This document shows positions 6,297-63,651 of a stretch of 64,000 nt of DNA, piece after piece. The notes beneath the pieces were generated by a model that did not search any database, was not told the origin of the DNA, and saw only the letters and a program-made list of their open reading frames with translations. The position numbers and the translations under genes were made by a program. The stretch comes from Candidatus Iainarchaeum sp. (GTDB lineage Archaea; Iainarchaeota; Iainarchaeia; Iainarchaeales; Iainarchaeaceae): the NCBI GenBank assembly GCA_016202305.1, contig JACQPB010000039.1:6661-70660 (forward strand), read 5' to 3'. Each line of letters begins with the position of its first letter. Position 1 is the stretch's first letter.

Positions 6297-7958
6297 GTGA
6301 TGGCCATGGCGATTGCTGTTGACACGAGTGCCTCGGAAGAAGTCATTTTCAAAAAGAAGCTCAAGAAGCTCGAACAGTATAAGGGCCGCGGCACGGAGCT
6401 GATAAGCGTCTACATACCGCCAGGAACGGACAGGAGCGCCGTGATGGGCCAGCTCTCGGAGGAAGTGAGCCAGAGCGGGAACATCAAGAGCCCACAGACG
6501 AGGAAGAACGTGCAGGGCGCGCTGCGCAAAATCATAAACTTCCTCAAGCAGATAGACTTCGGCATACCCGCCAACGGCCTAGTCGTGTTCGCAGGCAACA
6601 TATCCGAAACAGAGGGAAGGGCGGACCTGAGGCTGTTCACCATAAGGCCGATAAAGGAGCTGCGCACGAAGCGCTACTGGTGCGACTCGGAATTCCACCT
6701 CGAGCCACTGAAGGAAATGGCGAGGCCGAGCAACGCATACGGCCTCATAACCATAGACAAGAGCGAGGCCACGATAGCGATACTCGTCGGAAAGAGGTAC
6801 GAAATACTTGGCCACTTCACATCAGGGTACAGCGGGAAGATGAGGGCCGGGGGGCAGTGCATAGCGCCTGGCACTAGTGTCATGCTTTCAGATGGCAGGG
6901 AATTGAAAGCGGAAAGCATTGATGTGAATGGCGCCCTGAAAAGTGCGGATTTGGCGCAAATGAAAATCGCGGATACAGCAATAAACGCGAAATGGGAAAA
7001 AAGAAAGAAAGAGTGGCTATCCATAACAACAAAAAACCCGGAAAGGAAACTGGATTGCTCAAGAGAACACGCCATTTTCGCATGGGAAAGCGGCAGGATT
7101 CATGAAAAAGAGGCCAGCAAACTGAACGCGGGGGAATTTTTAGTGGCCTATGACAGGAACATGGACAGATTTGTCCCTGCGGAAATAAGCAGGATAAAAG
7201 CGAATACGGGGCAAACAAGAATGATTGACTTCAGCACCGCATCAAGAAACTTCATCGCCAACGGCCTTGTGGTTCACAACTCCGCCCAGCGCTTCGAGCG
7301 CCTGCGCGAGGAGGCCGAGCAGGAGTTCTACAAGCGCATAAGCGGGAAATCTAACGCCGCGTTCCTGCCATACGGCGAGAAGCTCCAGGGCCTGATAGTG
7401 GGCGGCCCGGGCATGACCAAGCAGTTCTTCCTCGAAAAGGACATGCTCGACCATCGGCTGAAGGGCAAGGTGCTGGCAACGCTCGACACATCTTATACTG
7501 ACGAATCCGGCATACGCGAGCTGATGCAGAAATCCGAAACCGTGCTCAAGGACACCGACCTCATGAAGGAGCGCGCGGCAATGAACGACTTCTTCACGCG
7601 CCTCGCGAAGGACGGCCTCGCGACATACGGCGAGAAGGAAGTCTTCAAGGCGCTTGAAATGGGCCAGGCGGAAAAGGTGCTGGTCAGCGAGGGCATAGAC
7701 TGGGTGGTGTACAAGGTGCAGAACGTCTCCAACGGGGAAGTGAAGACCATAGTGGACAAGGACAACACATTCTCGGAGACGGGCTTCAGGGGCGAGCACG
7801 TGGAAGTGATAGAGGAGGAAGAATACATCGATTACATGATGGAAAAGGCCTCGCAGACATCCGCGAAAGTGGAAGTGGTTTCCATAGAAACGCCTGAAGG
7901 CGAGCAGTTCTACAAGGGCTTCGGCGGCCTCGGTGCGATACTGAGGTACAGGCTGTGA
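6297..7958 (+). CDS. prf1: peptide chain release factor aRF1, interrupted in frame by a mini-intein
   Basis: KLKKLEQYKGRGTELISVYIPPGTD…NIKS(P)QTRKNVQ…GLVVFAGNI…YWCDSEFHLEPL… then …GKMRAGGQ|C…HN|SAQRFERLREE. The protein is 553 aa, or 412 aa once the 141-aa insert is removed. Confidence 0.9.
   Translation: MMAMAIAVDTSASEEVIFKKKLKKLEQYKGRGTELISVYIPPGTDRSAVMGQLSEEVSQSGNIKSPQTRKNVQGALRKIINFLKQIDFGIPANGLVVFAGNISETEGRADLRLFTIRPIKELRTKRYWCDSEFHLEPLKEMARPSNAYGLITIDKSEATIAILVGKRYEILGHFTSGYSGKMRAGGQCIAPGTSVMLSDGRELKAESIDVNGALKSADLAQMKIADTAINAKWEKRKKEWLSITTKNPERKLDCSREHAIFAWESGRIHEKEASKLNAGEFLVAYDRNMDRFVPAEISRIKANTGQTRMIDFSTASRNFIANGLVVHNSAQRFERLREEAEQEFYKRISGKSNAAFLPYGEKLQGLIVGGPGMTKQFFLEKDMLDHRLKGKVLATLDTSYTDESGIRELMQKSETVLKDTDLMKERAAMNDFFTRLAKDGLATYGEKEVFKALEMGQAEKVLVSEGIDWVVYKVQNVSNGEVKTIVDKDNTFSETGFRGEHVEVIEEEEYIDYMMEKASQTSAKVEVVSIETPEGEQFYKGFGGLGAILRYRL
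6858..7280 (+). other. mini-intein (141 aa, no endonuclease domain) inserted between GGQ and Ser of aRF1
   Basis: Begins with Cys (TGC 6858-6860: CIAPGTSVMLSDG…) and ends …NFIANGLVVHN (AAC 7278-7280), followed by Ser+1. Removing it restores the conserved GGQSAQRFERL. The DNA is visibly more A+T-rich than the flanks. Confidence 0.85.
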
Positions 7959-9265
7959 AAGTGCCGGAAAGCCTGACAAAAATGATTCCCATGACCGGCA
8001 TAAAGCACTACACCACGACGACAAAGGGAATCGGCGGCCAGATAAAGCGCAGGATTTCCGACTTCATCGTGCGCGAAACGACGCCAGAAGGCAGGCACCT
8101 CTCGAACGAAGTGTTCGGGGAGTGGGAGCCGCCGCGCGAGCAAAAGCTTGAAGTGCCATGGCAGCCGGAAGGCACGGAGTACCTGCATGTCACGATGGAG
8201 AAATTCAACCTCGACACGAACGAGGCGCTACGCAGGGTTTCACGAGCGCTCTATGTGTCCCCCAAGCGCATAGGGTACGCCGGCATGAAGGACAGGCGCG
8301 CAATAACCGTGCAGAGGATTTCCATATGGAACCCTGACGCGCAGAGGCTTGCCGCATTCAGGAGCAGGTATGTGTCGCTCCGCGAGCCGGAGTGGAGGCA
8401 GGGCAGGATAGAGATAGGGGACCTGAAAGGCAACGGATTCGAAGTGACTGTGAGGGGAATAGAAATGGGGGAGGAAGAGCTGCGCCGCACCATAGGGGAA
8501 TGCTTCTCGGAAATGACCACGCATGGAGTGGCGAACTACTTCGGCGAGCAGAGGTTCGGGGGAGCACGCGAAATAACGCACCGCGTGGGAAAAGAATTCA
8601 TAAAAGGCAACCTCGAGGGAGCGGTCATGCTCTACCTGACAGGAGAGAGCAAGAGCGAAGAGCAGGAAATAGCCGACGCGAGGAAGAGCCTCGCGGAAAA
8701 CAAGGATTTCGCACGCGCACTCAGGGAATTCCCGGCCAAGTTCAGGTACGAGCGCTCCATACTGCACCACCTGAGCGTGCACCCCCGCGATTTCGTCGGC
8801 GCTTTCCAGAAGCTGCCGAAGCACCTAACATACTTGTTCACGCACGCCTACCAGAGCTACATATTCAACGAAATAATCAATGCGCGCATCGAAACCGGCA
8901 TCGGCCTCGGACCATGCGAAGGCGACATCCTTGAGGATGGAGAGGCAACGGCGGCATTGCCGGGGTTCGACTCGGCCCTCGCGGAAGGAAGGCCCGGAGA
9001 GGCGGAAAGGAGCGTGCTAGAAAAGGAAGGAGTGAAGCCCGAGGACTTCAGGGTGAAGAGCTTCATGGAGCTGAGCTGCAGCGGAGGGAGGAAAAAAATA
9101 GTGCTCAGGCCGCATGAGCCGAGGCTCATTGGCATTTCTGCAGACGAATGTAATGAGGGCAAAATCAAGGCAAAAATAGGGTTTTGGCTCGAAAAAGGCA
9201 ATTATGCGACAACAATACTCAGGGAGCTACATAAGCTGCCCTATACACAGGAAAAAAACCCGTGA
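7955..9265 (+). CDS. truD: tRNA pseudouridine synthase TruD/Pus7 family
   Basis: GIGGQIKRRISDFIVRE…, YAGMKDRRAITVQRISIW, NYFGEQRFG. The GTG start overlaps the aRF1 stop (GTGA). Confidence 0.85.
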   Translation: MKVPESLTKMIPMTGIKHYTTTTKGIGGQIKRRISDFIVRETTPEGRHLSNEVFGEWEPPREQKLEVPWQPEGTEYLHVTMEKFNLDTNEALRRVSRALYVSPKRIGYAGMKDRRAITVQRISIWNPDAQRLAAFRSRYVSLREPEWRQGRIEIGDLKGNGFEVTVRGIEMGEEELRRTIGECFSEMTTHGVANYFGEQRFGGAREITHRVGKEFIKGNLEGAVMLYLTGESKSEEQEIADARKSLAENKDFARALREFPAKFRYERSILHHLSVHPRDFVGAFQKLPKHLTYLFTHAYQSYIFNEIINARIETGIGLGPCEGDILEDGEATAALPGFDSALAEGRPGEAERSVLEKEGVKPEDFRVKSFMELSCSGGRKKIVLRPHEPRLIGISADECNEGKIKAKIGFWLEKGNYATTILRELHKLPYTQEKNP

Positions 9266-10027: not shown

Positions 10028-10200
10028 AATTACTGAATTGATTTCCGTGAACTACCCACCGCTGAAGCAATTAGTGTCCCTTAAGAGGGCAACCGCTGCG
10101 ACGCCATGGCTTCTTGCTTCATCGAATCACCTTGCCAAAATTTGGTATTGGATGGTTCTCTTGCAAGGGCAGGTCCCCTGCCCATGAACTTATTTAATAT
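10024..10200 (-). ncRNA. candidate omega (right-end) RNA of TnpB copy 1, including a guide-like 3' tail
   Basis: DNA blocks are conserved between the two copies even where the protein C-termini diverge: GCCCTTGCAAGAGAACC, GGCAAGGTGATTCGATGAAGCAAGAA (26/26), GGTAGTTCACGGAA. Sequence beyond the right end differs (ATCAATTCAGTAATTATGC here). Confidence 0.4.
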
Positions 10201-11316
10201 ATTTACGGCGGAATTATAATCCCTATCCATTACAACACCACAATCGCCACATTTGTAAGTGCGTTGCCATAAAGGCATTTCCTTCAAGGAGCCGCACCTG
10301 CTACATGTTTTCGTGGTGTTCCTTGGGCTTATTTTTGCGAGTTCGCAACCAGCGCTTCCAGCCTTGTACGCGAGCATTTGCAAAAACCTTGCCCAAGAAG
10401 AATCCATGATATTCCGCGCATTCCGAGCGGAATGCACCATTCCAATGATATTCAAATCCTCAACCACAATCGTCCTGCAACCCTTCACGTATTTTGCGGA
10501 AAGCTTGTGCAAAAAATCATTCCGGCACCGCTCAATCTTTTCATGAACCTTCGCAACCGCCAGCCTAGCTTTTTTCCTGTTGCTGCTGCCTTTCCTCTTC
10601 CTCGCCAAATCCCTCTGCGCGAGCGCAAGGCGCTGCGCATGCTTGCCAATGTTATGCGGATGGGAAATCTTGTTTCCCTCACTGTCCACCAAATAATTAT
10701 TGATGCCAAGGTCGAGGCCAAGAACCTTCTCCCCGCACACCCTCTTCGGATTGGCATCGGTTATGAGTATTGCGAACCATTTCCCCAAGCGATTCTTCAA
10801 AGTAACCTGCTTTATGCGCCCCTCGACAGGCCTGTGCACCTTGATTTTTATGTTGCCGATTTTACTCAAATGCAAAATACCCTTCTTGCTTTTCACCATT
10901 TCGAGTTTGAAGCCAAACTGGTTATAGGAAAATGTCTTGAACCAATCTTTTCCCTTGAATCTCAAAGCGCCAACCTTCCGACCTTTTTTCTTAAGCGCTT
11001 TCAGTGAGCGCAGGTTAGAAAAAAGCCTGTAAGATTCCAACTGCAATGCCTTGGAATGCACCTCATTGAACTCCGACCTCGCTTTCTTCAATTTGACAAG
11101 CTCATGCTGCACCTTGTTCCTACTTGCTTTTCCTGTGCGCAATTTTTCCAGCAAAAAATTATAGGCTTGCCTACAAAGCTCCAGTGAATGCACCAAACCA
11201 AGTGCCTGAACCCTATTAGGGTACAGCCTGAACGCATAACTAATCAAAACCCCACACCAAAAACAAAACCGCGCCAGTCACCTTATAAGCCCAAGGAGAC
11301 GGTTCATTGCCGGTGC
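10043..11316 (-). mobile_element. TnpB-only IS200/IS605-family (IS1341-like) element, copy 1
   Basis: Ends were inferred by comparison with copy 2 (55082..56355). Similarity starts at TTCCGTGAACTACC (right-end side) and stops after TCATTGCCGGTGC (11304-11316, left-end side). No tnpA is present. Both copies come out at 1274 bp using these hand-derived ends. Confidence 0.7.
10081..11247 (-). CDS. tnpB: TnpB (IS605 OrfB-type RNA-guided endonuclease), apparently intact
   Basis: FRLYPN…, LGLDLGINNYLV (RuvC-I), IVVEDLNI (RuvC-II), CSRCGS…CGDCGVVMDRDYNSAVNIL (zinc finger plus RuvC-III). TTG start at 11247. Confidence 0.85.
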   Translation of the reverse strand: MISYAFRLYPNRVQALGLVHSLELCRQAYNFLLEKLRTGKASRNKVQHELVKLKKARSEFNEVHSKALQLESYRLFSNLRSLKALKKKGRKVGALRFKGKDWFKTFSYNQFGFKLEMVKSKKGILHLSKIGNIKIKVHRPVEGRIKQVTLKNRLGKWFAILITDANPKRVCGEKVLGLDLGINNYLVDSEGNKISHPHNIGKHAQRLALAQRDLARKRKGSSNRKKARLAVAKVHEKIERCRNDFLHKLSAKYVKGCRTIVVEDLNIIGMVHSARNARNIMDSSWARFLQMLAYKAGSAGCELAKISPRNTTKTCSRCGSLKEMPLWQRTYKCGDCGVVMDRDYNSAVNILNKFMGRGPALAREPSNTKFWQGDSMKQEAMASQRLPS

Positions 11317-29334: not shown

Positions 29335-29781
29335 ATGAGATTCTACGTAGGCTCCGACCACGCCGGGTTCAGGACGAAAGAAGCCCTGAAAAAAGCCCTC
29401 GGAAAGAAAGGCATCAAAACCATAGATGTGGGCACTTTCAGCGATGAATCCGCCGATTACCCTGATTTCGCCCTGAAAGTGGCCAAGAAAGTGGCGCGTG
29501 ACAAGGGCTCGCTGGGCCTCCTCGTGTGCGGCACTGGAATAGGCATGAGCATGGCCGCGAACAAGGTTAAAGGCATAAGGGCCGCGAACCCCTTTGACGC
29601 ATACACGGCGCGCGTGGCGCGGGAGCACAACGATGCTAACGTACTGTGCCTCGGCGGCCGGACATACGGCGCAGCGGCCGCGAAGAGGATACTCGCCGCA
29701 TTCCTGAAGGCGAGGCCGAGCGCGGACAAGAGGCACAGGAGGCGCGTGGTGAAAATTATGGAGATTGAGGGGAAATGTTAA
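29335..29781 (+). CDS. rpiB: ribose-5-phosphate isomerase B (RpiB/LacAB family)
   Basis: MRFYVGSDHAGFRTKEALKKAL…DYPDFALKVAKKV…GLLVCGTGIGMSMAANKVKGIRAA…AREHNDANVLCLGGR. Confidence 0.85.
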   Translation: MRFYVGSDHAGFRTKEALKKALGKKGIKTIDVGTFSDESADYPDFALKVAKKVARDKGSLGLLVCGTGIGMSMAANKVKGIRAANPFDAYTARVAREHNDANVLCLGGRTYGAAAAKRILAAFLKARPSADKRHRRRVVKIMEIEGKC

Positions 29782-31034
29782 AAGAAAAATTTTCTGGAAT
29801 TAAGACAAACGCAATAATTGCAGCTTCAGTTCTCCTAATTTTTTTGGCCGGGTGCTCTTCACCACCCGCTGTGAGCGTACCCACCTTTAGCGGTGAAGAA
29901 CTGGTTTTCACATGCGGAACATTAGATAAGAAAGGAGGGCACTATAAACTAGGAAATGATTTAGAACTCGGAGGAATAGCCAGAGTTAAAATCAACAATA
30001 CGTGCCTAATCATTGCCATGGACGACATCACTGTTGATTGCGATTACAAAAAAATCTCCGCAGATAATCCTATGGAGGGCCGGGGGATACTTGCAAGCAG
30101 CGTCAGCAATGTGACGATAAAAAACTGCAGCATAGAAGGTTACGGAACTACCACAACCGGCACCATAGATCCACGTGGGAGTGGGGCGGCATTTTATGGA
30201 AATGGAATAAGATTTGAATCTGTAACAAACGGTAAAATAATGGGCAGTAAAACAAAAAGCAATTCCTCTGGAATTCGTATTGTGGGCGGTAATGACAACG
30301 AATTGCTCAACAACGAAGTGAACGATGGGATAGCCATAACTACCGGTGTAAACAATACAATATCGAATAATAAAATTGGGTCTGGGGGAATTTCTGTTTC
30401 TGAGGGGCGTGATAATCGCATTACAAAAAACGAAATGACAAACGGAGGTGGCATAAGGTTAACAGCAACATCCTCGAATTTTGTAAGTGAAAACACTATT
30501 TCGAAAACGGAGGGAGCGATGAGTTTATACGCAAGCAATAAAAATCAAATTACAAAAAATTCTATTGTCGACACGGTTGAAGTAGGCCTCAAAATTGAAT
30601 CGTCAGAAGACAATAGCTTTTCCGAAAATGAGATTCAATTCAATGGGCAGGAAGGAATGGTTGTCAGCGGCACAAGCAAGAATAACAAGTTCCGGAAAAA
30701 CAAGATATGCGGAAATTTTTCCAGCCGGACAAACCCATTGAGATTCTGCAAGAACACGCCAAGCATAAACCAAGATGTCTGCAAAGACGAAGAATACTAT
30801 TTGGCCGGACAAATAGACTACTGTGAACGTAATCCGCAGTATTTCACATGTAACTTCCAGATAGCCGATTTTTCATGTTCGGAAGCACAGATAGACATGG
30901 GCGGAAACCAGTGGAATATTGGAGACGAAAACCTCTGCGGACTTACACGCTCCTCAAAATGCCAGGATATTGAACAAGAGCCAAAGGACTTGTTTGAAGA
31001 ATATAGGAAAAAGCGTGAGATAGCGACCCGATAA
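29775..31034 (+). CDS. secreted/lipobox-type protein with right-handed beta-helix (PbH1/NosD-like) repeats
   Basis: Signal …LLIFLAGCSSPP. Repeated N-x-[IV]-x-x-N units (NVTIKNCSIEG, NELLNNEVNDG, NTISNNKIG, NRITKNEMTNG, NFVSENTIS, NQITKNSIV…). Cys-rich C-terminus. A+T-richer DNA. Confidence 0.6.
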   Translation: MLKEKFSGIKTNAIIAASVLLIFLAGCSSPPAVSVPTFSGEELVFTCGTLDKKGGHYKLGNDLELGGIARVKINNTCLIIAMDDITVDCDYKKISADNPMEGRGILASSVSNVTIKNCSIEGYGTTTTGTIDPRGSGAAFYGNGIRFESVTNGKIMGSKTKSNSSGIRIVGGNDNELLNNEVNDGIAITTGVNNTISNNKIGSGGISVSEGRDNRITKNEMTNGGGIRLTATSSNFVSENTISKTEGAMSLYASNKNQITKNSIVDTVEVGLKIESSEDNSFSENEIQFNGQEGMVVSGTSKNNKFRKNKICGNFSSRTNPLRFCKNTPSINQDVCKDEEYYLAGQIDYCERNPQYFTCNFQIADFSCSEAQIDMGGNQWNIGDENLCGLTRSSKCQDIEQEPKDLFEEYRKKREIATR

Positions 31035-39988: not shown

Positions 39989-41029
39989 TCAATTCGGCAC
40001 GACTTTTTGGCCAGTAGGGGGCAAGCCCATGTTGTCGTGCGGGTAGGTTGCCTCTTTCACTCTGCTCTCGAGCCTTTCCTTTTTGTCTTTGGCGTACCGC
40101 AAACCGAACTTTTTGTTGAATTTTATTACTTTTTCTCGATGAGTTTGGAAGAATATCCTGTAACAATAACTTGTGTGCCCATCCTTCCTTTGTGTTGGCT
40201 GGCATAATTCTTTTCTGAGGTTTGGCGTTGTGGCCAAGCCAACTTTGGCGCACAGCTGCTTTAGCTCCTGAAGGTATGCCCTATGCTCGTTTTCAAGCAT
40301 ATCAATTTTGCTCAAGCCTAAGGCAAAGTCTGTGAACCTCTTTGCCCAAGACCACCGGGGGTCGCCTCTAAACCGTGGAACGGAAACTTCCGAGGCAAGC
40401 AAGCCGTCAAGGAAAGCAATCTTCTTTGTGTACGCCAAACCAAACACGTACCTTGGCAAGGCATACTTTGTTGAAACTTTGCTTCCTACAGGAGCACCGA
40501 GAGCTGCAAAAAAACGAACAACTGCACGGTCATAACACCGGATATTCCATGAATGACCATATTCCCCGCCTTCTACAATCTGCGTTTTTCCTTCTGCAAA
40601 TGGAAAAATGCTCAGCAAATCGGAGTGCCACAGGTCAACATCCTTTTTGTCGGAAGAAATGAATGCAATCGTGTTGAAACGAATATCAATGCCGCCATCG
40701 CCAAACAAGGTGCCGAGGATATTGAAAATAATTTTGGAATCCTTGTGGATTTGATAGAACGGAAGCAAACCTGCATCTTTCAGTTTTTGGACAACTTTGA
40801 GAGGCAGCGGAATTGCGCGCTTTTCACCTTTGGTGTGCCACCAGCGGGTCATTCCGTTTTTTACTCCGAGAATCTTTGCGGCTTTCTTGTAGCCTATTTC
40901 GGGATTTTCAGCAATGAGCTTCTGGTACTCGAAGTATTTCTTGCAGGAAAATTGTTCCTCTGCAGAATATGTGTTGATTATGTCCTGTTCGGTTATAATG
41001 GGTTGCTTTACAACCATGCCTGCAATCAT
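39989..41029 (-). CDS. free-standing double-motif LAGLIDADG homing-endonuclease-like protein with an N-terminal HTH
   Basis: NILGTLFGDGGIDIR (motif 1) and KIAFLDGLLASEVSVP (motif 2). N-terminal …IGYKKAAKILGVKNGMTRWWH. ATG at 41029 (MIAGMVV…) is preferred over the 41149 extension. Confidence 0.75.
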   Translation of the reverse strand: MIAGMVVKQPIITEQDIINTYSAEEQFSCKKYFEYQKLIAENPEIGYKKAAKILGVKNGMTRWWHTKGEKRAIPLPLKVVQKLKDAGLLPFYQIHKDSKIIFNILGTLFGDGGIDIRFNTIAFISSDKKDVDLWHSDLLSIFPFAEGKTQIVEGGEYGHSWNIRCYDRAVVRFFAALGAPVGSKVSTKYALPRYVFGLAYTKKIAFLDGLLASEVSVPRFRGDPRWSWAKRFTDFALGLSKIDMLENEHRAYLQELKQLCAKVGLATTPNLRKELCQPTQRKDGHTSYCYRIFFQTHREKVIKFNKKFGLRYAKDKKERLESRVKEATYPHDNMGLPPTGQKVVPN

Positions 41030-41124
41030 TTCACAAACCCCCTCTTTAGAAGCAGATTGGTTCGTTTGCCCCTTGCTCGCAAAACAATTGCCAGTGACAG
41101 AAGATATATTGCTTTGCAGACAGG

Positions 41125-41137
41125 TCATTGCCGGTGC
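41125..41137 (-). promoter_or_regulatory. solo copy of the TnpB-IS left-end 13-mer (GCACCGGCAATGA on the minus strand) with a downstream A/T box, upstream of the LAGLIDADG gene
   Basis: The plus strand reads TCATTGCCGGTGC, identical to 11304-11316 and 56343-56355. It is followed (minus strand) by CCTGTCT…AATATAT at the same spacing as CCTCTCT…TTATAAG in the IS copies. Confidence 0.5.
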
Positions 41138-41139
41138 CG

Positions 41140-41286
41140 TCATTCCCAATCACCGCCCTCTGAAAAGTTTTTCAGAATCCAGAGCTCCCTGTCCGTCAGC
41201 TCCTCACCATTCTCGGCCGAGCGCACTGTCTCAATGATTTCCTCCACTGTCGGAAGAACTATTTTCAATTCTTTCAAAAACTCCAT
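41140..41286 (-). CDS. 48-aa acidic micro-protein (MEFLKELKIVLPTVEEIIETVRSAENGEELTDRELWILKNFSEGGDWE)
   Basis: Hand-translated. GGAGGTGG lies 5 nt upstream of the ATG at 41286. TGA stop at 41140-41142. Confidence 0.35.
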   Translation of the reverse strand: MEFLKELKIVLPTVEEIIETVRSAENGEELTDRELWILKNFSEGGDWE

Positions 41287-58205: not shown

Positions 58206-61200
58206 TTACCTCACATAGCTCGGCTTGAACGCCTGCGCCACGGAGTGCTTGAAGCCGTCGTACGCCTCAGTAGTTTCCTTCGAAATCGACGGAAGGATTT
58301 TCTTGAGCGCGGCCTCGAAGTGCGACATCCTGACCTCAGCGGGCCTGAATCCCGCCTCCTGCATGGAAACCAGCGCGGCCTCACGGATGAGCCCTTCGAG
58401 GTCGGCGCCGCTGTACCCATCGGTTTTTGACGCGAGAGCGAAAATTGTGGGATAAACAAGGAGTTCTTTAAGTTCCTGTTTTTCAGGAATTTCCCCAAGC
58501 GAATCAAAGAATTTTTTCCTGTCTTCAGTGCTTTTCTTGTCCGTCAGCCTGGAAAACAATTCTTTCACTTTCTTGGAAATGCCTGGCGAATACTCTTTTG
58601 CCAGCCAATCCAGCTCATTGTCCGAAAGAGAAAACTCGATTGGAACGTCCTTCGAATGTATCTTCAGGATAAGCTTCCTCGCCTCGAAGTCCGGTGCGGG
58701 GACCTTTATTATCTTGTCAACCCTCCCCGGCCTCAGAAGCGCCGGGTCAATCAAGTCTGGTCGGTTGGTGGCCGCAACGAAGACAACCCCCTTTAGCTCC
58801 TCGATGCCGTCAAGCTCCGTGAGAAGCTGGTTCACCATCCTTTCCCCGACACCGCTGTCTGTGGAGGAGCCACGGCGTGCGGCAATGCTGTCAATCTCGT
58901 CGAAAAAAACGACAACGGGGGAAACCTGCCTCGCGCGCTGGAAAACCTTCCGGATGCCTTTTTCGCTGTTGTGCGCAAATATTCCGCCAAAACCGGCAAC
59001 AAAATTCTGGCAAGGTTCAACGGAAACGTCATAGACAAAGCCAGAATACGTGATTTCTTTTATTTGTTCTACTTTGTCCCAGTAAATATCCGATTCGACA
59101 AGTTTCCACAAAGAGGAGTATTTTTCCCTCTGTAAGTCGATAGTGCATAATGCTTCTCTGAGTTTCTTCACGCCAACAGAATTATTATGCGGATAAGAAC
59201 CGAAAGCCGTTTCAAGAACTTCGGTCAATTTATCACATATTGGGATGACGTTGCTCCGCGCCCAAGACTTTTCCCCGATATATTTTCCGATAAGCATATT
59301 TCTCCTGGAATCAATAAATCCTACGTTGAGGAATTTCCTGAAATTATCAACCCCGAATATCTGCACCCTGTGACTTATGCTCCCGCTCCATTCGCGTTTT
59401 TCCCTGCATGAGGCAACTATCCCGAGTTTCAGGAAAAGATACAATAAATCATTAGCCAGGCTTTTACTAACAGTTGTTGCCTCGATAACATATCTTCTTT
59501 CAGATTTTGTAATGGAGCCATCGCCGCTAAAATAGCCTTTCAGGAAATTATGAACTTGCTCGTTTGAACCCGCGAACAAAAATCCTGGAACACTTTTGTT
59601 GAAAGCACCTGTCTTGAGGCCGAAAACCTTTTCCAAAACATGCTTGAAAATGCAGGAATTTATTACGGCGCCGGTTTCCGTGAAAGTCGCTTTCAGGCCA
59701 AAACTCGACAATATTTTTGACAAATCCGACCTTATTTCCGGGTTTGCATTGGTAATCCGCACAATGTCTCTATTGAAATCGTCTTCAGCAACAAACAAAC
59801 CGAGCAACCTACATAAACCTGAGTTGACATTCAGCAGAACGGGCAGGTGACTTCGCGCACCTTTAACCCCAATAGTCACGCTTGTGAAATCCGGAGTAAA
59901 TCCAAGCCCCGAAATGAGTTTTGCGAACCTTGTCGTCTCCACCGGAAGATTTTTCCCGGTTATATCAGACAAATATTTTTTACTCAGACCGAGACCTTGC
60001 GACACCTTGTCCAGGCCATGCTGTTCTTTTGCCCTCAGGATGTTTTCCCTCAGATTTCCAAGTACGAACCCGCTTTTATCCCTGAAATCATCAAACAAAT
60101 TTATTTGGCGGCGGTCCAAAGAAATGTTTGGAACCCTGGAAGGGACTGCTATAACACTTTTCCCCGCGACAAGATCTTCGGTAGCAATTGATTCTATTTC
60201 CGTGCCAACCAGGCCGAACAATGAATGCTTATCAGTAACTCTTATTGCCCTTCCTGTTTTCGTTTTCACTTCAAGCATTCTGCCGTTCAATGAGTGTTTT
60301 ATGTGGCCATTTATCCTGGAAAAAAGGGCCTTGCCATCAGAATCAAACGTAACTACCTGAACATCCAATTTCTCCTCTACGATTTTTCCTATCTTTTCCC
60401 TGAAAATCTTCTTTCCGTCAAAAACCAGGAGTTCCTCATCGTAAGGCAAACTTTCCCCAACCCACATGCTTATGAGCTGCGGCCCCTTGATGCTGATGAA
60501 ATTGGCTTCAGACTCTGTAGCTATTGCCTTTGCCACGGCTGTTTTTCCACAGCCCGGCGGGCCATAAAGAAGTATGCCGCGCGGAGGCTTTATGCCCATT
60601 TTCTGGAAGCTCTCAGGGTGCTTCAGCGGCCACTCTACAGCCTGCCTGAGCTCGCTCTTAAGCTCCTCAAGGCCGCCGATGTCCTGCCATTTGACATTCG
60701 GAACCTCGATGGAAACCTCGCGGAGCGCCGAAGGCTGGACGTCCTTCAGGGCCTCGAGGAAATCGTCACGCTTCACCTCAAGGCTCTCAAGAACTTCCGG
60801 CGGAATGGTCTCCTCCTCGAGGTTTATTTTAGGGGCCTTGGGGTCGTCAGGATTGAGGTACCTGCGCAGCGCCTTCATCGCGGCCTCCTTCGCGAGCGAC
60901 TCCAGATCAGCGCCGACGAACCCGTGCGTTATTCCCGCGAAATAATCAAGGCCTATGTTCTTGGAGAGCGGCATCCCGCGCGTGTGAATCGTGAGAATTT
61001 CCATGCGCCCCTTCTTGGACGGCACCCCTATTTCAATCTCGCGGTCAAAGCGCCCGGGCCTCCTGAGGGCCTCATCAATGCTGTTCACCCTGTTAGTGGC
61101 GCCAATCACTATCACCTGGCCGCGGGACTCCATGCCGTCCATCGCGGAGAGTATCTGCGCCACGACACGCCTTTCAACCTCGCCCACTACCTCGTCGCGC

Positions 61201-63518
61201 TTCGGGGCTATGGCGTCAATCTCGTCGAAGAAGATGATTGAGGGCGCGTTCTTCTCCGCCTCCTTGAACACCTCGCGGATGCGCTCCTCCGCCTCCCCGA
61301 CGAACTTTGAATTATGCAAAACCATCAGGGAGTGTCCTGCAAGGAAATTATTGAAAGGTTCAACGGTGAGGTCAAATAACTCTTTTTCGCCTTCTTCGCT
61401 AATGTCCGTAACTTTTGCCCATCTAAGCTCGGCGTTGACCAAACACTCCAGAGGCTTGTCGTCTTTTCCGAAAAGGGAGTAAATCTCCTTGAGCTTTCTT
61501 ACAGTCAATGGAGCCCTTCCTGAAATATACCTCTCTGTCGGCCATTCTGGAAGGGTTTTGCCATAAACAAGATTTTTTTTCGATTTTATTTTTTTGAGCA
61601 GAGGGCTTATATCAGGGATTCCCAAATCATCCCCTTTCTTCTTTCTCCCCGTATACCATTTCCTGATGATGGAATATTTTTCCGTGTTGGACTCTACCAC
61701 TTCGGCAAATATCTCTCTCGACCTGTTGCCTACAAATGTCAGTGCCCACATGTCCGAGAGTTTTGTCTTCCAAGGCTTGATTTCAGCTATTAGCCCGAGC
61801 TTTTTACCCAGAACTGAGAGCTGCTCAAGTACAGTCCTTGTAATGGAATAAATCCTTATAGTAGGATAGCCGCCAACGCCCCTGCTCGTGGTACCGTCAC
61901 CTTCCCAAAAACCCCTTATAAAAGAGGCGATTTCTGATTTAGGAAGTGAAAAAAACCATTCTGGAAGCGAGTAATCGCCTTTTCTTCCTATCGGGCTGCC
62001 CAGGACCTCAGAGAAGAAATGCCGCAGAGTCCTTGAATAGCAATGTACGCGATTGTTCTTAATTTTCGGTTCGATAGCGAAGGCTGATTCGCATAGCTGT
62101 GCGAATTCACCGAGCAGAACCGGGTCATTGTTTGAGAAATGCAGGCCATCCTCTGTTATATTCCCTTCAGAATACATGAAACCCAGTATCCTCATCAACT
62201 CTGGAGAGGTTTTCTGCGGAAGCGAAACAAAATTTTCAGCCCTGCTGCGTTTCCTATGGTCAATTTTCACCCCAAGAACTTCCTTATTTTTGGAAGCTAT
62301 ATGGAGTTTTTTTACCCCGTCAGGAGTTTTTACGAATGTTGCATCTGGAAAGCCACTCAAATAATCTCCGAATTCATGACTCTTGCCCTCAGGCAGCGCT
62401 GATGCAATGGCAATTTTATCCCCGGCCTTCAACTCAGAGGCGGTCTTCCATACAATGCAGCCAAAAGAATCCAGCATGGCAAAAGGTTGATTGGAAGAGA
62501 CTACAACCTCATCGCCAAGATGGGTTTTAACCTTATAAGTGTTTGCCCGCAACTTTGTGAGATGGGTTACTTTTCCTTTCTCGATTTTGAGGTCATTATT
62601 TAGCGAGTATACCGAAAGCGGCTCTTTGAGCTCCACAATCTTTAGCTTCCCGTCATTTACCAAAGTGCCACTTTCCAAAGCCTTGCTAAACATTTCCTCT
62701 GCCCTCTCAAAGCCTTTAGGGTTTGTCAGGATCTGTGTGTTGCCCTCAACACACATTATGCTGGGGCTGGAAATCGAAATGAAGTGCGCCTGCGTCTCGT
62801 TCGCCACGGCCTTCGCAAGAAGCGTCTTTCCAGTTCCAGGAGGGCCATAGAGAAGCACGCCCTTGGGAGGATTGATGCCAAGGCGCCTGAAAATCTCAGG
62901 ATGCCTCATGGGCAGCTCTATCATCTCCCGTACTTTCTGGACCTGTTCATCGAGCCCGCCGATGTCCTCGTAGGCTATGCGCGGTATGCCACCGAGGGAA
63001 TCCTTCACAGGCTCCTCCTTGAGTATGAACTGCGTGAAATCCGTGACCTTTACGATGCCCCTCGGATTCGTGTCCACGACCTGGTAAATGAAGCCCGAAC
63101 CGAAGACGCTTATCAGCACCCTGTCGCCCTTGTTCAGGGGCCTGCCGATAAAGTTCTTCTTGAGAATGCGGTCATACCCGGACGCGATTATCCTCACTTC
63201 CTGAGTAGGGGCGAGAACCACGCGCTTGGCCTCCCCGAAGTCAGCCTTCTGAATAACCACTTTCTCCCCGAGGCCCACACCGGCATTCCGCCTGATTAGG
63301 TTGTCCATCCTTATGAGCGCCTTGCCCTCGTCCTCAAGACGTGCCGGCCACACAATGGCGGCCGTCCTCTGCGGCCCTATGACCTCGACAATGTCCCCGG
63401 AAGTTATGCCGAGCTCCTCCTTCGTCTTGCGGTCAAGTGTTATTATGTTGCGGCCGACATGAGAAGGGTCGGGCTCCTCCACACGAAGGCTCAACTGCGG
63501 CTTCTTTCCCAGGCCCAT
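58206..63518 (-). CDS. cdc48: Cdc48/VCP-like double-AAA+ ATPase carrying two in-frame inteins
   Basis: N-domain (…[28 protein letters not shown]…); D1 [20 protein letters not shown]…[12 protein letters not shown]; D2 [20 protein letters not shown]…[12 protein letters not shown]. Likely ATG at 63518 (MGLGKK…). Confidence 0.9.
58968..60452 (-). other. Cdc48 intein 2 (495 aa, D2 module, Ser1, LAGLIDADG-type domain)
   Basis: …[12 protein letters not shown]|[13 protein letters not shown]…[11 protein letters not shown]…[11 protein letters not shown]…[14 protein letters not shown]|[17 protein letters not shown] at 60450-52. AAC at 58968-70. Confidence 0.8.
61311..62753 (-). other. Cdc48 intein 1 (481 aa, D1 module, Cys1, LAGLIDADG endonuclease domain)
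   Basis: …[10 protein letters not shown]|[10 protein letters not shown]…[10 protein letters not shown]…[10 protein letters not shown]…[15 protein letters not shown]|[18 protein letters not shown] at 62751-53. AAT at 61311-13. Confidence 0.85.
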
Positions 63519-63651
63519 GAAAGTAAGGATTAAGGTAACAAATAATAACATAACTCATTGTAAAGCCGCGGCGCAAAAAGCCGATGAATCGGCTATGTTG
63601 AAATGTCGCTTTGAGTAATCATTTTAACCTCCATTGTTATTAAAACTGTTT

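What the first reader, a model, noticed from the sequence alone, without database searches (positions are those of the whole stretch)
6858..7280. Mini-intein inserted exactly at the catalytic GGQ motif of aRF1
The aRF1 ORF is 141 aa too long. The extra segment starts with Cys immediately after …RAGGQ, ends in …GLVVHN, and is followed by Ser. Excising it restores GGQSAQRFERL, the universally conserved peptidyl-tRNA hydrolysis loop. The segment has no room for an endonuclease domain (mini-intein) and is more A+T-rich than the flanking aRF1 codons. Inteins typically target such ultra-conserved catalytic sites. I do not recall release factor 1 among the commonly listed intein hosts, and an unspliced precursor would lack a functional GGQ loop, so splicing is obligatory for translation termination.
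Basis: partly seen in the sequence, partly recalled or inferred. Interest (0 to 1): 0.7.

Follow-up and report, generated by a model that had tools for sequence, protein, structure and literature searches.

The report
Mini-intein in aRF1 GGQ motif
The gene for the archaeal translation-termination factor aRF1 is interrupted, exactly after its catalytic Gly-Gly-Gln motif, by a 141-residue self-splicing protein element (a mini-intein) that has lost its homing endonuclease; the mechanism is ordinary, but I found no paper describing this host and site, although the same element occurs in at least 148 public genomes whose record titles name mostly DPANN archaea.

Summary
Window 6858..7280 (423 nt, 141 aa) lies in frame in an aRF1 gene, between CAG (the Gln of GGQ) and TCC (Ser). 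Removing it restores RAGGQSAQRFERL. The insert passes Pfam's Intein_splicing cutoff. With a family alignment it is modelled at pLDDT 97.8 as an all-beta HINT domain (TM 0.91 to the PhoCDC21-1 intein). It keeps every class-1 splicing residue: Cys1, Ser68-x-x-His71, Asp124, His140-Asn141, and Ser+1.

The orthologous locus of the closest relative (aRF1 81% identical, same TruD and AA-kinase neighbours) has an empty site.

The element is not unique. At least 148 GTDB species genomes encode a relative, and 152 non-redundant copies from the loci and proteins I could inspect sit at this same site. They form a decay series: about 500 aa (LAGLIDADG plus HTH), about 430 aa, about 270 aa, and 131–145 aa minis. 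The window copy is closest to a 501-aa form (46%), so it lost its endonuclease independently.

I found no paper on an aRF1 or eRF1 intein.

Verdict: a genuine mini-intein, very probably splicing-competent. It is a new member (host and site) of a known kind. Splicing itself is inferred, not shown.

The parts
6306..7958 (+). aRF1 precursor gene. ATG 6306 is the start used by the public record P0001 (550 aa); an upstream GTG at 6297 would give 553 aa. Stop codon TGA at 7956..7958.
   Evidence: TIGR03676 aRF1_eRF1 scores 427.9 bits against a cutoff of 234.7. Pfam eRF1_1, eRF1_2 and eRF1_3 all match.
6306..6857 (+). N-extein: aRF1 domain N and the first part of domain M, ending ...GKMRAGGQ. The GGQ codons are 6849..6857.
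   Evidence: profile positions 5-185.
6858..7280 (+). Class-1 mini-intein, 141 aa, HINT fold, no endonuclease.
6858..6896 (+). Block A (CIAPGTSVMLSDG). Cys1 (TGC 6858..6860) is the first nucleophile.
   Evidence: Cys1 is invariant in alignment A1. The 152/152 count is not independent, because my extraction pattern required Cys1.
7059..7070 (+). Block B, Ser68-Arg-Glu-His71. This is the TxxH motif with Ser in place of Thr, as in the rest of this intein family.
   Evidence: S68 in 146/152 (Thr in 6) and H71 in 152/152.
7167..7172 (+). Join between the N-terminal and C-terminal splicing regions (Arg104|Phe105). This is where full-length relatives carry about 290-365 aa of HTH plus LAGLIDADG endonuclease.
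   Evidence: Alignments.
7218..7280 (+). Blocks F and G (RMIDFSTASRNFIANGLVVHN). Asp124 is at 7227..7229, His140-Asn141 at 7275..7280. Asn141 is the residue that cyclises.
   Evidence: D124 in 152/152 and H140 in 152/152. N141 is also 152/152, but the extraction pattern imposed it.
7281..7955 (+). C-extein, starting with Ser+1 (TCC 7281..7283) of SAQRFERL. It holds the rest of domain M and domain C.
   Evidence: profile positions 184-412.

Best explanation
Window 6858..7280 encodes a canonical class-1 mini-intein inserted between Gln and Ser of the GGQS motif of the archaeal class-I release factor aRF1, in a Candidatus Diapherotrites (DPANN) genome. The gene is translated as a 550-aa precursor. 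The 141-aa HINT domain then excises itself in four steps: an N-S acyl shift at Cys1; transesterification to Ser+1; cyclisation of Asn141, assisted by His140, the block B Ser68/His71 pair and Asp124; and an O-N shift. This ligates ...RAGGQ to SAQRFERL... and yields a normal aRF1 of about 409 aa. The element descends from a homing intein carrying a LAGLIDADG endonuclease, with or without an extra HTH domain, that targets this site in many related archaea. In this lineage the endonuclease module was deleted, leaving an immobile passenger that persists only because it still splices out of an essential protein. Shown here: the exact in-frame insertion, the HINT fold, all splicing residues, the empty orthologous site, homology to endonuclease-bearing inteins at the same site, and a foreign-looking codon usage. 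Inferred: that splicing occurs, and that the precursor cannot catalyse peptide release.
For: Exact junctions, and restoration of GGQSAQRFERL on excision. PF14890 scores 41.5 bits against a cutoff of 35.8. PDB sequence hits are PhoCDC21-1, PabCDC21-1 and MjaKlbA mini-inteins. The model has pLDDT 97.8 and pTM 0.91 and is all-beta. Foldseek gives 6rpq at TM 0.91 and rmsd 1.9 A, and all top 50 matches are HINT domains. The residues invariant in the family (C1, S68, H71, D124, H140, N141) are all present in the window copy, which has no stop or frameshift and aligns 1-141 to the family profile. The orthologous syntenic locus L081 (aRF1 81%, TruD 68%, AA-kinase 69% identity) has the empty site CAG|AGC. 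Sixty-one of 61 insert-bearing aRF1s in the top 120 hits carry the insert at GGQ|C...HN|S, and the junction pattern was found in 77 of 80 GTDB loci, two of them (L035, L063) unreliable calls. About 38 of the 45 nearest relatives among 1.84 billion representative proteins are aRF1 inteins at this site. The size series is 86 LAGLIDADG plus HTH, 21 LAGLIDADG, 2 intermediate and 43 mini. The window copy's nearest neighbour is a 501-aa intein (46%, against 37% for the best mini), and 102 of 107 large copies keep both LAGLIDADG motifs. GC3 is 0.525 against 0.796 in the extein, and the two CDC48 inteins in the same window show the same offset.
Against: There is no experimental or proteomic evidence of splicing. 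TIGR01445 (23.4 against 24.5) and TIGR01443 (14.6 against 15.6) fall just below their curated cutoffs, and PF14890 drops to 31.4 bits, below its cutoff, when the whole precursor is scanned. Block B has Ser rather than the usual Thr, although that is the family norm here (146/152). This particular allele is known from one genome and is at most 46% identical to any other copy, so purifying selection on it could not be measured by dN/dS. Only 64 kb of the genome was visible, so a second, intein-free aRF1 elsewhere cannot be excluded.
Confidence: 0.88

Rival explanations
1. The insert is a dead intein remnant that no longer splices. This aRF1 copy is then a non-functional pseudogene-like relic, and termination depends on another release factor elsewhere in the genome.
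For: Splicing was not demonstrated. The endonuclease has already been lost. The copy is strongly diverged (at most 46% identical to any relative). NCBI names the product only 'hypothetical protein'. The rest of the genome could not be searched.
Against: All ten family-invariant positions are retained, and the ORF is intact over 553 codons. The extein is 81% identical to intein-free orthologues and keeps strong host-like codon bias (GC3 0.80, AAG 31 to AAA 5), as expected of an expressed essential gene. The locus is syntenic with the orthologous aRF1-TruD locus. No second aRF1 or Pelota-like ORF lies in the 64 kb.
Confidence: 0.05
2. The intein splices conditionally, for example held by a Cys1-Cys67 disulfide or dependent on temperature or redox state. 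The supply of active aRF1, and so translation termination, would then be regulated after translation. Until it splices, the precursor might also act as a stop-codon-binding decoy.
For: Conditional protein splicing is documented for other archaeal inteins; the reference list of PMC4760082 cites Topilina et al. 2015 on the RadA intein. The window intein has a second Cys (C67) next to block B, and 68 of 152 family members have Cys there. Domain N (NIKS, YxCxxxF) is untouched in the precursor, so it could still bind the A site.
Against: This is purely speculative. C67 is replaced by Ser, Ala, Thr or Val in more than half of the family. The sporadic distribution, the empty sites in the closest relatives and the endonuclease decay series all fit a selfish element, with no need for a host function.
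Confidence: 0.06
3. The segment is a lineage-specific, permanently retained insertion domain of aRF1, or an assembly chimera, and not an excised element.
For: None beyond the formal possibility.
Against: The closest orthologues lack the segment. The insert sizes differ by up to 380 aa at one fixed point. The HINT fold and splicing residues are present. The insert sits in the loop that must reach the peptidyl-transferase centre in solved eRF1-ribosome complexes (established knowledge; examples are listed). The same architecture recurs in well over a hundred independent assemblies from different studies, which rules out a chimera.
Confidence: 0.01

Closest known systems
Endonuclease-bearing inteins at the same aRF1 GGQ|S site in other archaea whose records are mostly titled as DPANN (e.g. 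P0017, P0018 and P0015 at 501-503 aa; P0002 at 432 aa). These are public sequences, some auto-annotated by JGI as 'eRF1/intein/homing endonuclease'.
   Same: Identical insertion point (GGQ|C...HN|S). Homologous N-terminal and C-terminal splicing regions (up to 46% identity). The same invariant residues, including Ser in block B.
   Different: They carry a LAGLIDADG endonuclease, and most carry an additional XRE-type HTH domain, between residues 104 and 105 of the window copy. The window copy lacks both and so should be immobile.
PhoCDC21-1 and PabCDC21-1 mini-inteins of Pyrococcus MCM (PDB 6rpq, 6rpp)
   Same: They are the best solved relatives by sequence (E = 5e-6) and by fold (TM 0.91, rmsd 1.9 A). 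Both are natural archaeal class-1 mini-inteins ending ...NFIANG(I/L)xVHN.
   Different: The host protein and site differ (MCM helicase). Identity is only about 24%. The CDC21-1 inteins have Thr in block B and about 25 extra residues.
Mini-inteins at the same aRF1 site in other genomes (43 non-redundant, 131-145 aa; e.g. P0031/L001 from Candidatus Iainarchaeum, and copies in records titled Woesearchaeota or Pacearchaeota)
   Same: Same host, same site, and the same architecture without an endonuclease.
   Different: They are at most 37% identical to the window copy and fall into about 17 clusters, nine minis having a large intein as nearest neighbour. These are therefore parallel, independent endonuclease losses and not one inherited allele.
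Published inteins in archaeal translation and transcription proteins (aIF2/IF-2, RNA polymerase subunits) as catalogued by Novikova et al. 2016 (PMC4760082)
   Same: Inteins in conserved motifs of informational proteins.
   Different: That survey's main text does not mention release factor, aRF1 or eRF1, and states that core translation components 'contain few inteins'. The GGQ peptidyl-tRNA hydrolysis motif is a different target from the P-loop sites that dominate known insertions.

Membership tests
Intein (class 1, HINT superfamily) | In-frame insertion in a conserved host protein, whose removal restores a contiguous conserved host sequence | tested here: met
   Excision restores GGQSAQRFERL. 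eRF1_2 is then matched as one stretch, and the product is colinear with 4af1.
Intein (class 1, HINT superfamily) | Cys, Ser or Thr nucleophile at intein position 1 (block A) | tested here: met
   Cys1, TGC 6858..6860; invariant in alignment A1.
Intein (class 1, HINT superfamily) | Block B TxxH motif | tested here: met
   Ser68-x-x-His71. His is 152/152. Ser replaces Thr family-wide (146/152), a conservative variant.
Intein (class 1, HINT superfamily) | Block F Asp and block G penultimate His plus terminal Asn | tested here: met
   Asp124, His140 and Asn141 are present and invariant.
Intein (class 1, HINT superfamily) | Cys, Ser or Thr as the first residue of the C-extein (+1) | tested here: met
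   Ser+1 (TCC 7281..7283), the conserved Ser of GGQS.
Intein (class 1, HINT superfamily) | HINT fold | tested here: met
   Model pLDDT 97.8. Foldseek top 50 are all HINT domains, best TM 0.91.
Intein (class 1, HINT superfamily) | Passes curated family HMM thresholds | tested here: inconclusive
   PF14890 scores 41.5 against 35.8 on the insert alone, but 31.4 in the whole precursor. TIGR01445 scores 23.4 against 24.5, and TIGR01443 scores 14.6 against 15.6.
Intein (class 1, HINT superfamily) | Sporadic distribution, with intein-free alleles in close relatives | tested here: met
   The eight closest exteins are intein-free, and the syntenic locus L081 has an empty site.
Intein (class 1, HINT superfamily) | Autocatalytic excision with ligation of the exteins | not testable with these tools
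   This needs expression or proteomics.
Mini-intein | No homing-endonuclease domain between the N-terminal and C-terminal splicing regions | tested here: met
   No LAGLIDADG, HNH or Hom_end hit was found. The 141 aa align as residues 1-104 plus 105-141 around the endonuclease of the large relatives.
Class 3 intein | Trp (block B), Cys (block F) and Thr (block G) motif, with a block F Cys as branch nucleophile | tested here: not met
   Block F reads MIDFSTASRNF with no Cys, and block G is VVHN. Read directly from the sequence.
Bacterial intein-like (BIL) or Hedgehog Hint domains | Located in variable or C-terminal regions of non-conserved proteins, usually without a +1 nucleophile and without restoring a conserved host motif | tested here: not met
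   The insert lies in the universally conserved GGQ loop and has Ser+1. BIL and Hedgehog structures appear only as fold relatives at 12-16% identity.
aRF1/eRF1 class-I release factor (the host) | Three eRF1 domains, NIKS and YxCxxxF decoding motifs, and a GGQ motif | tested here: met
   TIGR03676 scores 427.9 against 234.7. eRF1_1, eRF1_2 and eRF1_3 all match. The sequence shows GNIKSPQTRKNV, YWCDSEF and AGGQ.

The most novel reading that the evidence does not exclude
Splicing of the GGQ-site intein is conditional (redox, temperature or growth-state dependent). Archaea carrying it would then gate the supply of catalytically competent release factor after translation. The unspliced precursor, whose decoding domain is intact but whose GGQ loop is blocked, would act as a competitive inhibitor of termination. 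That would be a host-exploited regulatory switch on translation termination, beyond a purely selfish passenger.
Probability: 0.06. Interest if true: 0.75.

Novelty: new member of a known kind. Interest (0 to 1): 0.4.

Why it matters
1. It adds the class-I release factor, and specifically the universally conserved GGQ peptidyl-tRNA hydrolysis motif, to the list of intein targets. The main published survey I could read says core translation components contain few inteins and does not list release factor (PMC4760082).

2. The site is occupied in at least 148 GTDB species genomes, most with record titles naming DPANN lineages. It shows the whole intein life cycle at one locus: likely active LAGLIDADG plus HTH forms, partly deleted forms, many independently derived minis, and empty sites. 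That makes it a good natural system for studying homing and decay.

3. Practical consequences:
- The intein caused NCBI to call this essential gene 'hypothetical protein'.
- aRF1 (TIGR03676) is, from my memory and unverified here, among the archaeal phylogenomic marker genes, so unmasked inteins there can distort alignments and completeness estimates.

4. A compact 141-aa intein with Gln(-1) and Ser(+1) junctions may be of use as a protein-engineering scaffold.

Mechanistically nothing departs from textbook protein splicing.

Tried and rejected
- The word-index search with the 141-aa insert alone found nothing, although the exact sequence is in that database inside P0001. This is a sensitivity limit of the tool, not evidence of uniqueness. 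The exhaustive HMMER scan and the full-precursor search replaced it.
- Single-sequence AlphaFold gave pLDDT 37.9 with spurious helices and was discarded.
I rebuilt it from exact substrings (A2).
- Seven literature searches found nothing on a natural release-factor intein. The terms were intein with aRF1, with eRF1, with 'peptide chain release factor', with 'release factor' plus archaea, with DPANN, with Diapherotrites, and with Woesearchaeota. The one candidate, Bodo saltans virus, mentions eRF1 and inteins separately.
- The supplements of Novikova et al. are not held, so their full tables could not be checked.
- I considered and rejected a class 3 intein, a BIL or Hedgehog Hint domain, a retained insertion domain and an assembly chimera (see the membership test and rival explanations).
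- dN/dS on the window allele was not attempted, because no relative is closer than 46%.
- Model coordinates were not exposed, so I could not measure active-site geometry or the Cys1-Cys67 distance.
- Record titles outside DPANN among the GTDB loci ('uncultured Methanosarcinales', 'Thaumarchaeota', 'Chloroflexi') were not verified. I suspect labelling or binning errors, but that is untested.
Full report
**What is in the sequence**

The window carries one long ORF at 6297..7958 (+), 553 aa from GTG. The public copy of this protein, P0001, starts at ATG 6306 and is 550 aa. NCBI lists it as 'MAG: hypothetical protein HY544_03885 [Candidatus Diapherotrites archaeon]'. It is an aRF1: TIGR03676 scores 427.9 bits against a cutoff of 234.7, and the eRF1_1, eRF1_2 and eRF1_3 domains all match.

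The codons read GGG GGG CAG (6849..6857), TGC (6858..6860) ... CAC AAC (7275..7280), TCC (7281..7283). It begins with Cys, ends in His-Asn, and is followed by Ser.

Deleting it gives ...GKMRAGGQSAQRFERLREE.... Pfam then matches eRF1_2 as a single stretch (124.7 bits) where it had matched two. The product aligns without a gap to the solved Halobacterium aRF1 4af1 through GGQSAQRF. A profile built from 116 exteins splits into two colinear halves at precisely this point. Intein-free homologues are 404-418 aa long, and the spliced product would be 409 aa.

**Is it an intein?**

Scanned alone, the insert passes Pfam's curated cutoff for Intein_splicing (41.5 against 35.8 bits). It falls about one bit short of the two TIGRFAM intein-end models.

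Its only significant relatives among solved structures are archaeal mini-inteins: PhoCDC21-1 (6rpq, E = 5e-6), PabCDC21-1 (6rpp) and MjaKlbA (2jmz).

A single-sequence structure prediction failed (pLDDT 38). With a 54-row alignment of homologous splicing domains the model reached mean pLDDT 97.8 and pTM 0.91 and is all-beta. Foldseek against the PDB returned only HINT domains among the best 50 matches. They were led by the PhoCDC21-1 intein (TM 0.91, rmsd 1.9 A) and followed by the TvoVMA, NpuDnaB, SspDnaB and RecA inteins, Hedgehog and BIL domains.

In the family alignment the invariant columns are Cys1, Lys45, Trp46, Ser68, His71, Asp124, Phe132, Gly136, His140 and Asn141. Over 152 non-redundant copies, His71 and Asp124 are 152/152 and Ser68 is 146/152, with Thr in the other 6. 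These are the class-1 catalytic set: block A Cys, block B (T/S)xxH, block F Asp and block G His-Asn. Together with Ser+1, the window copy has all of them.

There is no Trp-Cys-Thr signature of class 3 inteins. No LAGLIDADG, HNH or other endonuclease domain is present.

**Relatives and the empty site**

Searching with the whole precursor returned aRF1 proteins in four length classes: about 405-418 aa, about 545-575 aa, about 811-854 aa (with LAGLIDADG_3), and about 907-921 aa (with LAGLIDADG_3 plus HTH_3-type domains). Every one of the 61 insert-bearing proteins has its insert at GGQ|C ... HN|S. The 55 short ones read GGQS(A/S)xRF straight through.

The window's 141 aa align to residues 1-104 and 105-141 around the endonuclease module of the long forms, with one clean gap.

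An exhaustive HMMER scan of 1.84 billion representative proteins found only 45 relatives of the insert at E <= 0.001. About 38 of them are aRF1 proteins or fragments with the element at this site.

In the 80 kept loci my junction pattern matched 77, although two of those calls (L035, L063) contain stops and are unreliable. The record titles name Iainarchaeum/Diapherotrites, Woesearchaeota, Pacearchaeota, Nanoarchaeota and Aenigmatarchaeota.

The eight exteins most similar to the window's (77-81% identity) are all intein-free. I fetched the locus of one of them, P0005. It has the same TruD gene downstream (68% identity) and an AA-kinase gene upstream (69%), so it is the orthologue. Its site reads ...GGC GGG CAG|AGC GCT... 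where the window has ...GGG GGG CAG|[423 nt]|TCC GCC....

This disposes of the idea of a conserved, retained aRF1 domain, and of an assembly artefact.

**History of the element**

Among the 152 non-redundant copies, 86 are about 495-510 aa (LAGLIDADG plus HTH), 21 are about 410-437 aa (LAGLIDADG only), 2 are 271-275 aa, and 43 are minis of 131-145 aa. Both LAGLIDADG motifs are intact in 102 of the 107 large copies, so the family probably still contains active homing endonucleases.

The window copy's nearest neighbour is a 501-aa intein (46% identity over the splicing domain), against 37% for the best other mini. Minis fall into about 17 clusters, and nine have a large intein as their nearest neighbour. 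Endonuclease loss therefore happened repeatedly, and independently in the window's lineage.

The intein is compositionally foreign to its host gene:
- GC is 0.466 against 0.572.
- GC3 is 0.525 against 0.796.
- Lys AAA:AAG is 11:1 against 5:31 (p = 2e-6).
- There are no CGN Arg codons, against 12 in the extein.

The two inteins in the CDC48 gene of the same window show the same offset: GC3 of 0.45-0.47 against 0.72 in their extein. This fits horizontal origin, weaker translational selection on intein codons, or both. I cannot separate those two.

**Mechanism**

The best-supported account is textbook class-1 protein splicing of a 550-aa precursor. Cys1 attacks the Gln(-1) carbonyl. Ser+1 takes over the N-extein. 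Asn141 cyclises to release the intein, and an O-N shift leaves a native peptide bond in GGQ-S.

The GGQ loop must reach the peptidyl-transferase centre in release-factor-ribosome complexes (established knowledge; solved examples are listed). A 16-kDa domain grafted into that loop should therefore abolish peptide release. That makes splicing obligatory if this is the only aRF1.

No second aRF1 or Pelota-like ORF lies in the 64 kb, but I could not see the rest of the genome.

The steps shown are the anatomy, the fold, the residues, the homology and the empty site. The steps inferred are splicing itself and the inactivity of the precursor. I put 0.88 on this account.

The rivals are:
- a dead, non-splicing relic (0.05);
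- a conditionally splicing regulatory element (0.06; only Cys67 next to block B, present in 68 of 152 copies, hints at it);
- a retained domain or a chimera (0.01).

**Comparison with what is known, and novelty**

By every testable criterion this is a member of the intein family and of the mini-intein subclass. Only the TIGRFAM thresholds are narrowly missed, and splicing is untestable here.

What is not in the literature I could search is the host and the site. Seven full-text searches gave no paper on a natural aRF1 or eRF1 intein. The large survey by Novikova et al. lists aIF2 and RNA polymerase but not release factor, and remarks that core translation components contain few inteins (PMC4760082). 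Its supplements were not available.

On the other hand the sequences are public and numerous, and JGI's pipeline already labels some 'eRF1/intein/homing endonuclease'.

I therefore rate it a new member of a known kind. It is an undescribed but common intein allele at one of the most conserved catalytic motifs in biology, working by a fully known mechanism. Interest is 0.4.

Noticed in passing
window 58209..63554 (-): intein 1 at 61311..62753, intein 2 at 58968..60452: A CDC48/VCP-type double-AAA ATPase ORF of 1782 aa carries two full-length LAGLIDADG inteins. One is 481 aa (…SPSIM|CVEGNTQ…LMVLHN|SKFVGE…). The other is 495 aa and starts with Ser, not Cys (…MWVGE|SLPYDEE…GIFAHN|SEKGIR…). Both have GC3 of 0.45-0.47 against 0.72 in the extein. 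That makes three inteins in 64 kb.
   Followed up: partly
P0100, P0104 (intein-free); P0133, P0145, P0155; loci L049, L054, L080 (GGW) and L062 (GGM): Some aRF1 homologues lack the Gln of GGQ. They read GGW, GGF or GGM instead, encoded by ordinary TGG or ATG codons in the loci whose DNA I could read, and sit in intact ORFs that keep the NIKS/NIKD and YxCxxxF decoding motifs. This occurs in at least two separate clades: a Diapherotrites-like 'GGWSAKRFEHL' group, and a group in records titled Woesearchaeota with 'GG(W/F)|intein|SQQRY' whose member P0142 still has GGQ. Whether these are paralogues beside a canonical aRF1, or the only release factor of their genome, could not be tested. If they are the only one, it would be remarkable.
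   Followed up: partly
P0003, P0015-P0018, P0024 and others; 86 of 152 non-redundant aRF1 inteins: The aRF1 inteins of about 500 aa carry an XRE-type helix-turn-helix domain (Pfam HTH_3, HTH_19 or HTH_31) between the N-terminal splicing region and the LAGLIDADG endonuclease. It is presumably an accessory DNA-binding module for homing. The class of about 430 aa lacks it.
   Followed up: no
P0144 (271-aa intein), L028 (275-aa intein): These are intermediate-size inteins at the same aRF1 site, with a partly deleted endonuclease. They look like snapshots of decay from full-length to mini.
   Followed up: no
P0087 (888 aa), probably the same contig as L048 (JAFCCG010000025.1, titled 'Chloroflexi bacterium'; both contigs are 19307 bp): This aRF1 has a deletion that removes the GGQ motif and roughly the first 20-25 residues of the intein, so it cannot splice. 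It is either a dead gene or a misassembly. The Chloroflexi label is probably a binning or labelling error. Several other loci are titled 'uncultured Methanosarcinales' or 'Thaumarchaeota' yet carry aRF1 exteins resembling those in the Woesearchaeota-titled records.
   Followed up: no
window 6306..7958 / P0001: NCBI names this essential aRF1 'hypothetical protein'. The intein splits the TIGR03676 match into two stretches, and in the context of the whole protein PF14890 falls below its cutoff. Inteins can therefore hide marker genes from automatic annotation.
   Followed up: partly
window 29769..31031 (+), 39992..41149 (-), 10084..11277 (-): These long ORFs have markedly lower GC (0.42-0.47) and GC3 (0.42-0.56), and prefer AAA for Lys, unlike most genes of the window (GC3 about 0.68-0.78). 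They are possibly horizontally acquired.
   Followed up: no
window 7955..9265 (+): The downstream gene starts at a GTG that overlaps the aRF1 stop codon (GTGA). It is 68% identical to the TruD-family pseudouridine synthase that follows aRF1 in the intein-free orthologous locus L081. The aRF1-TruD pair is therefore conserved, and the two genes are possibly co-translated.
   Followed up: partly
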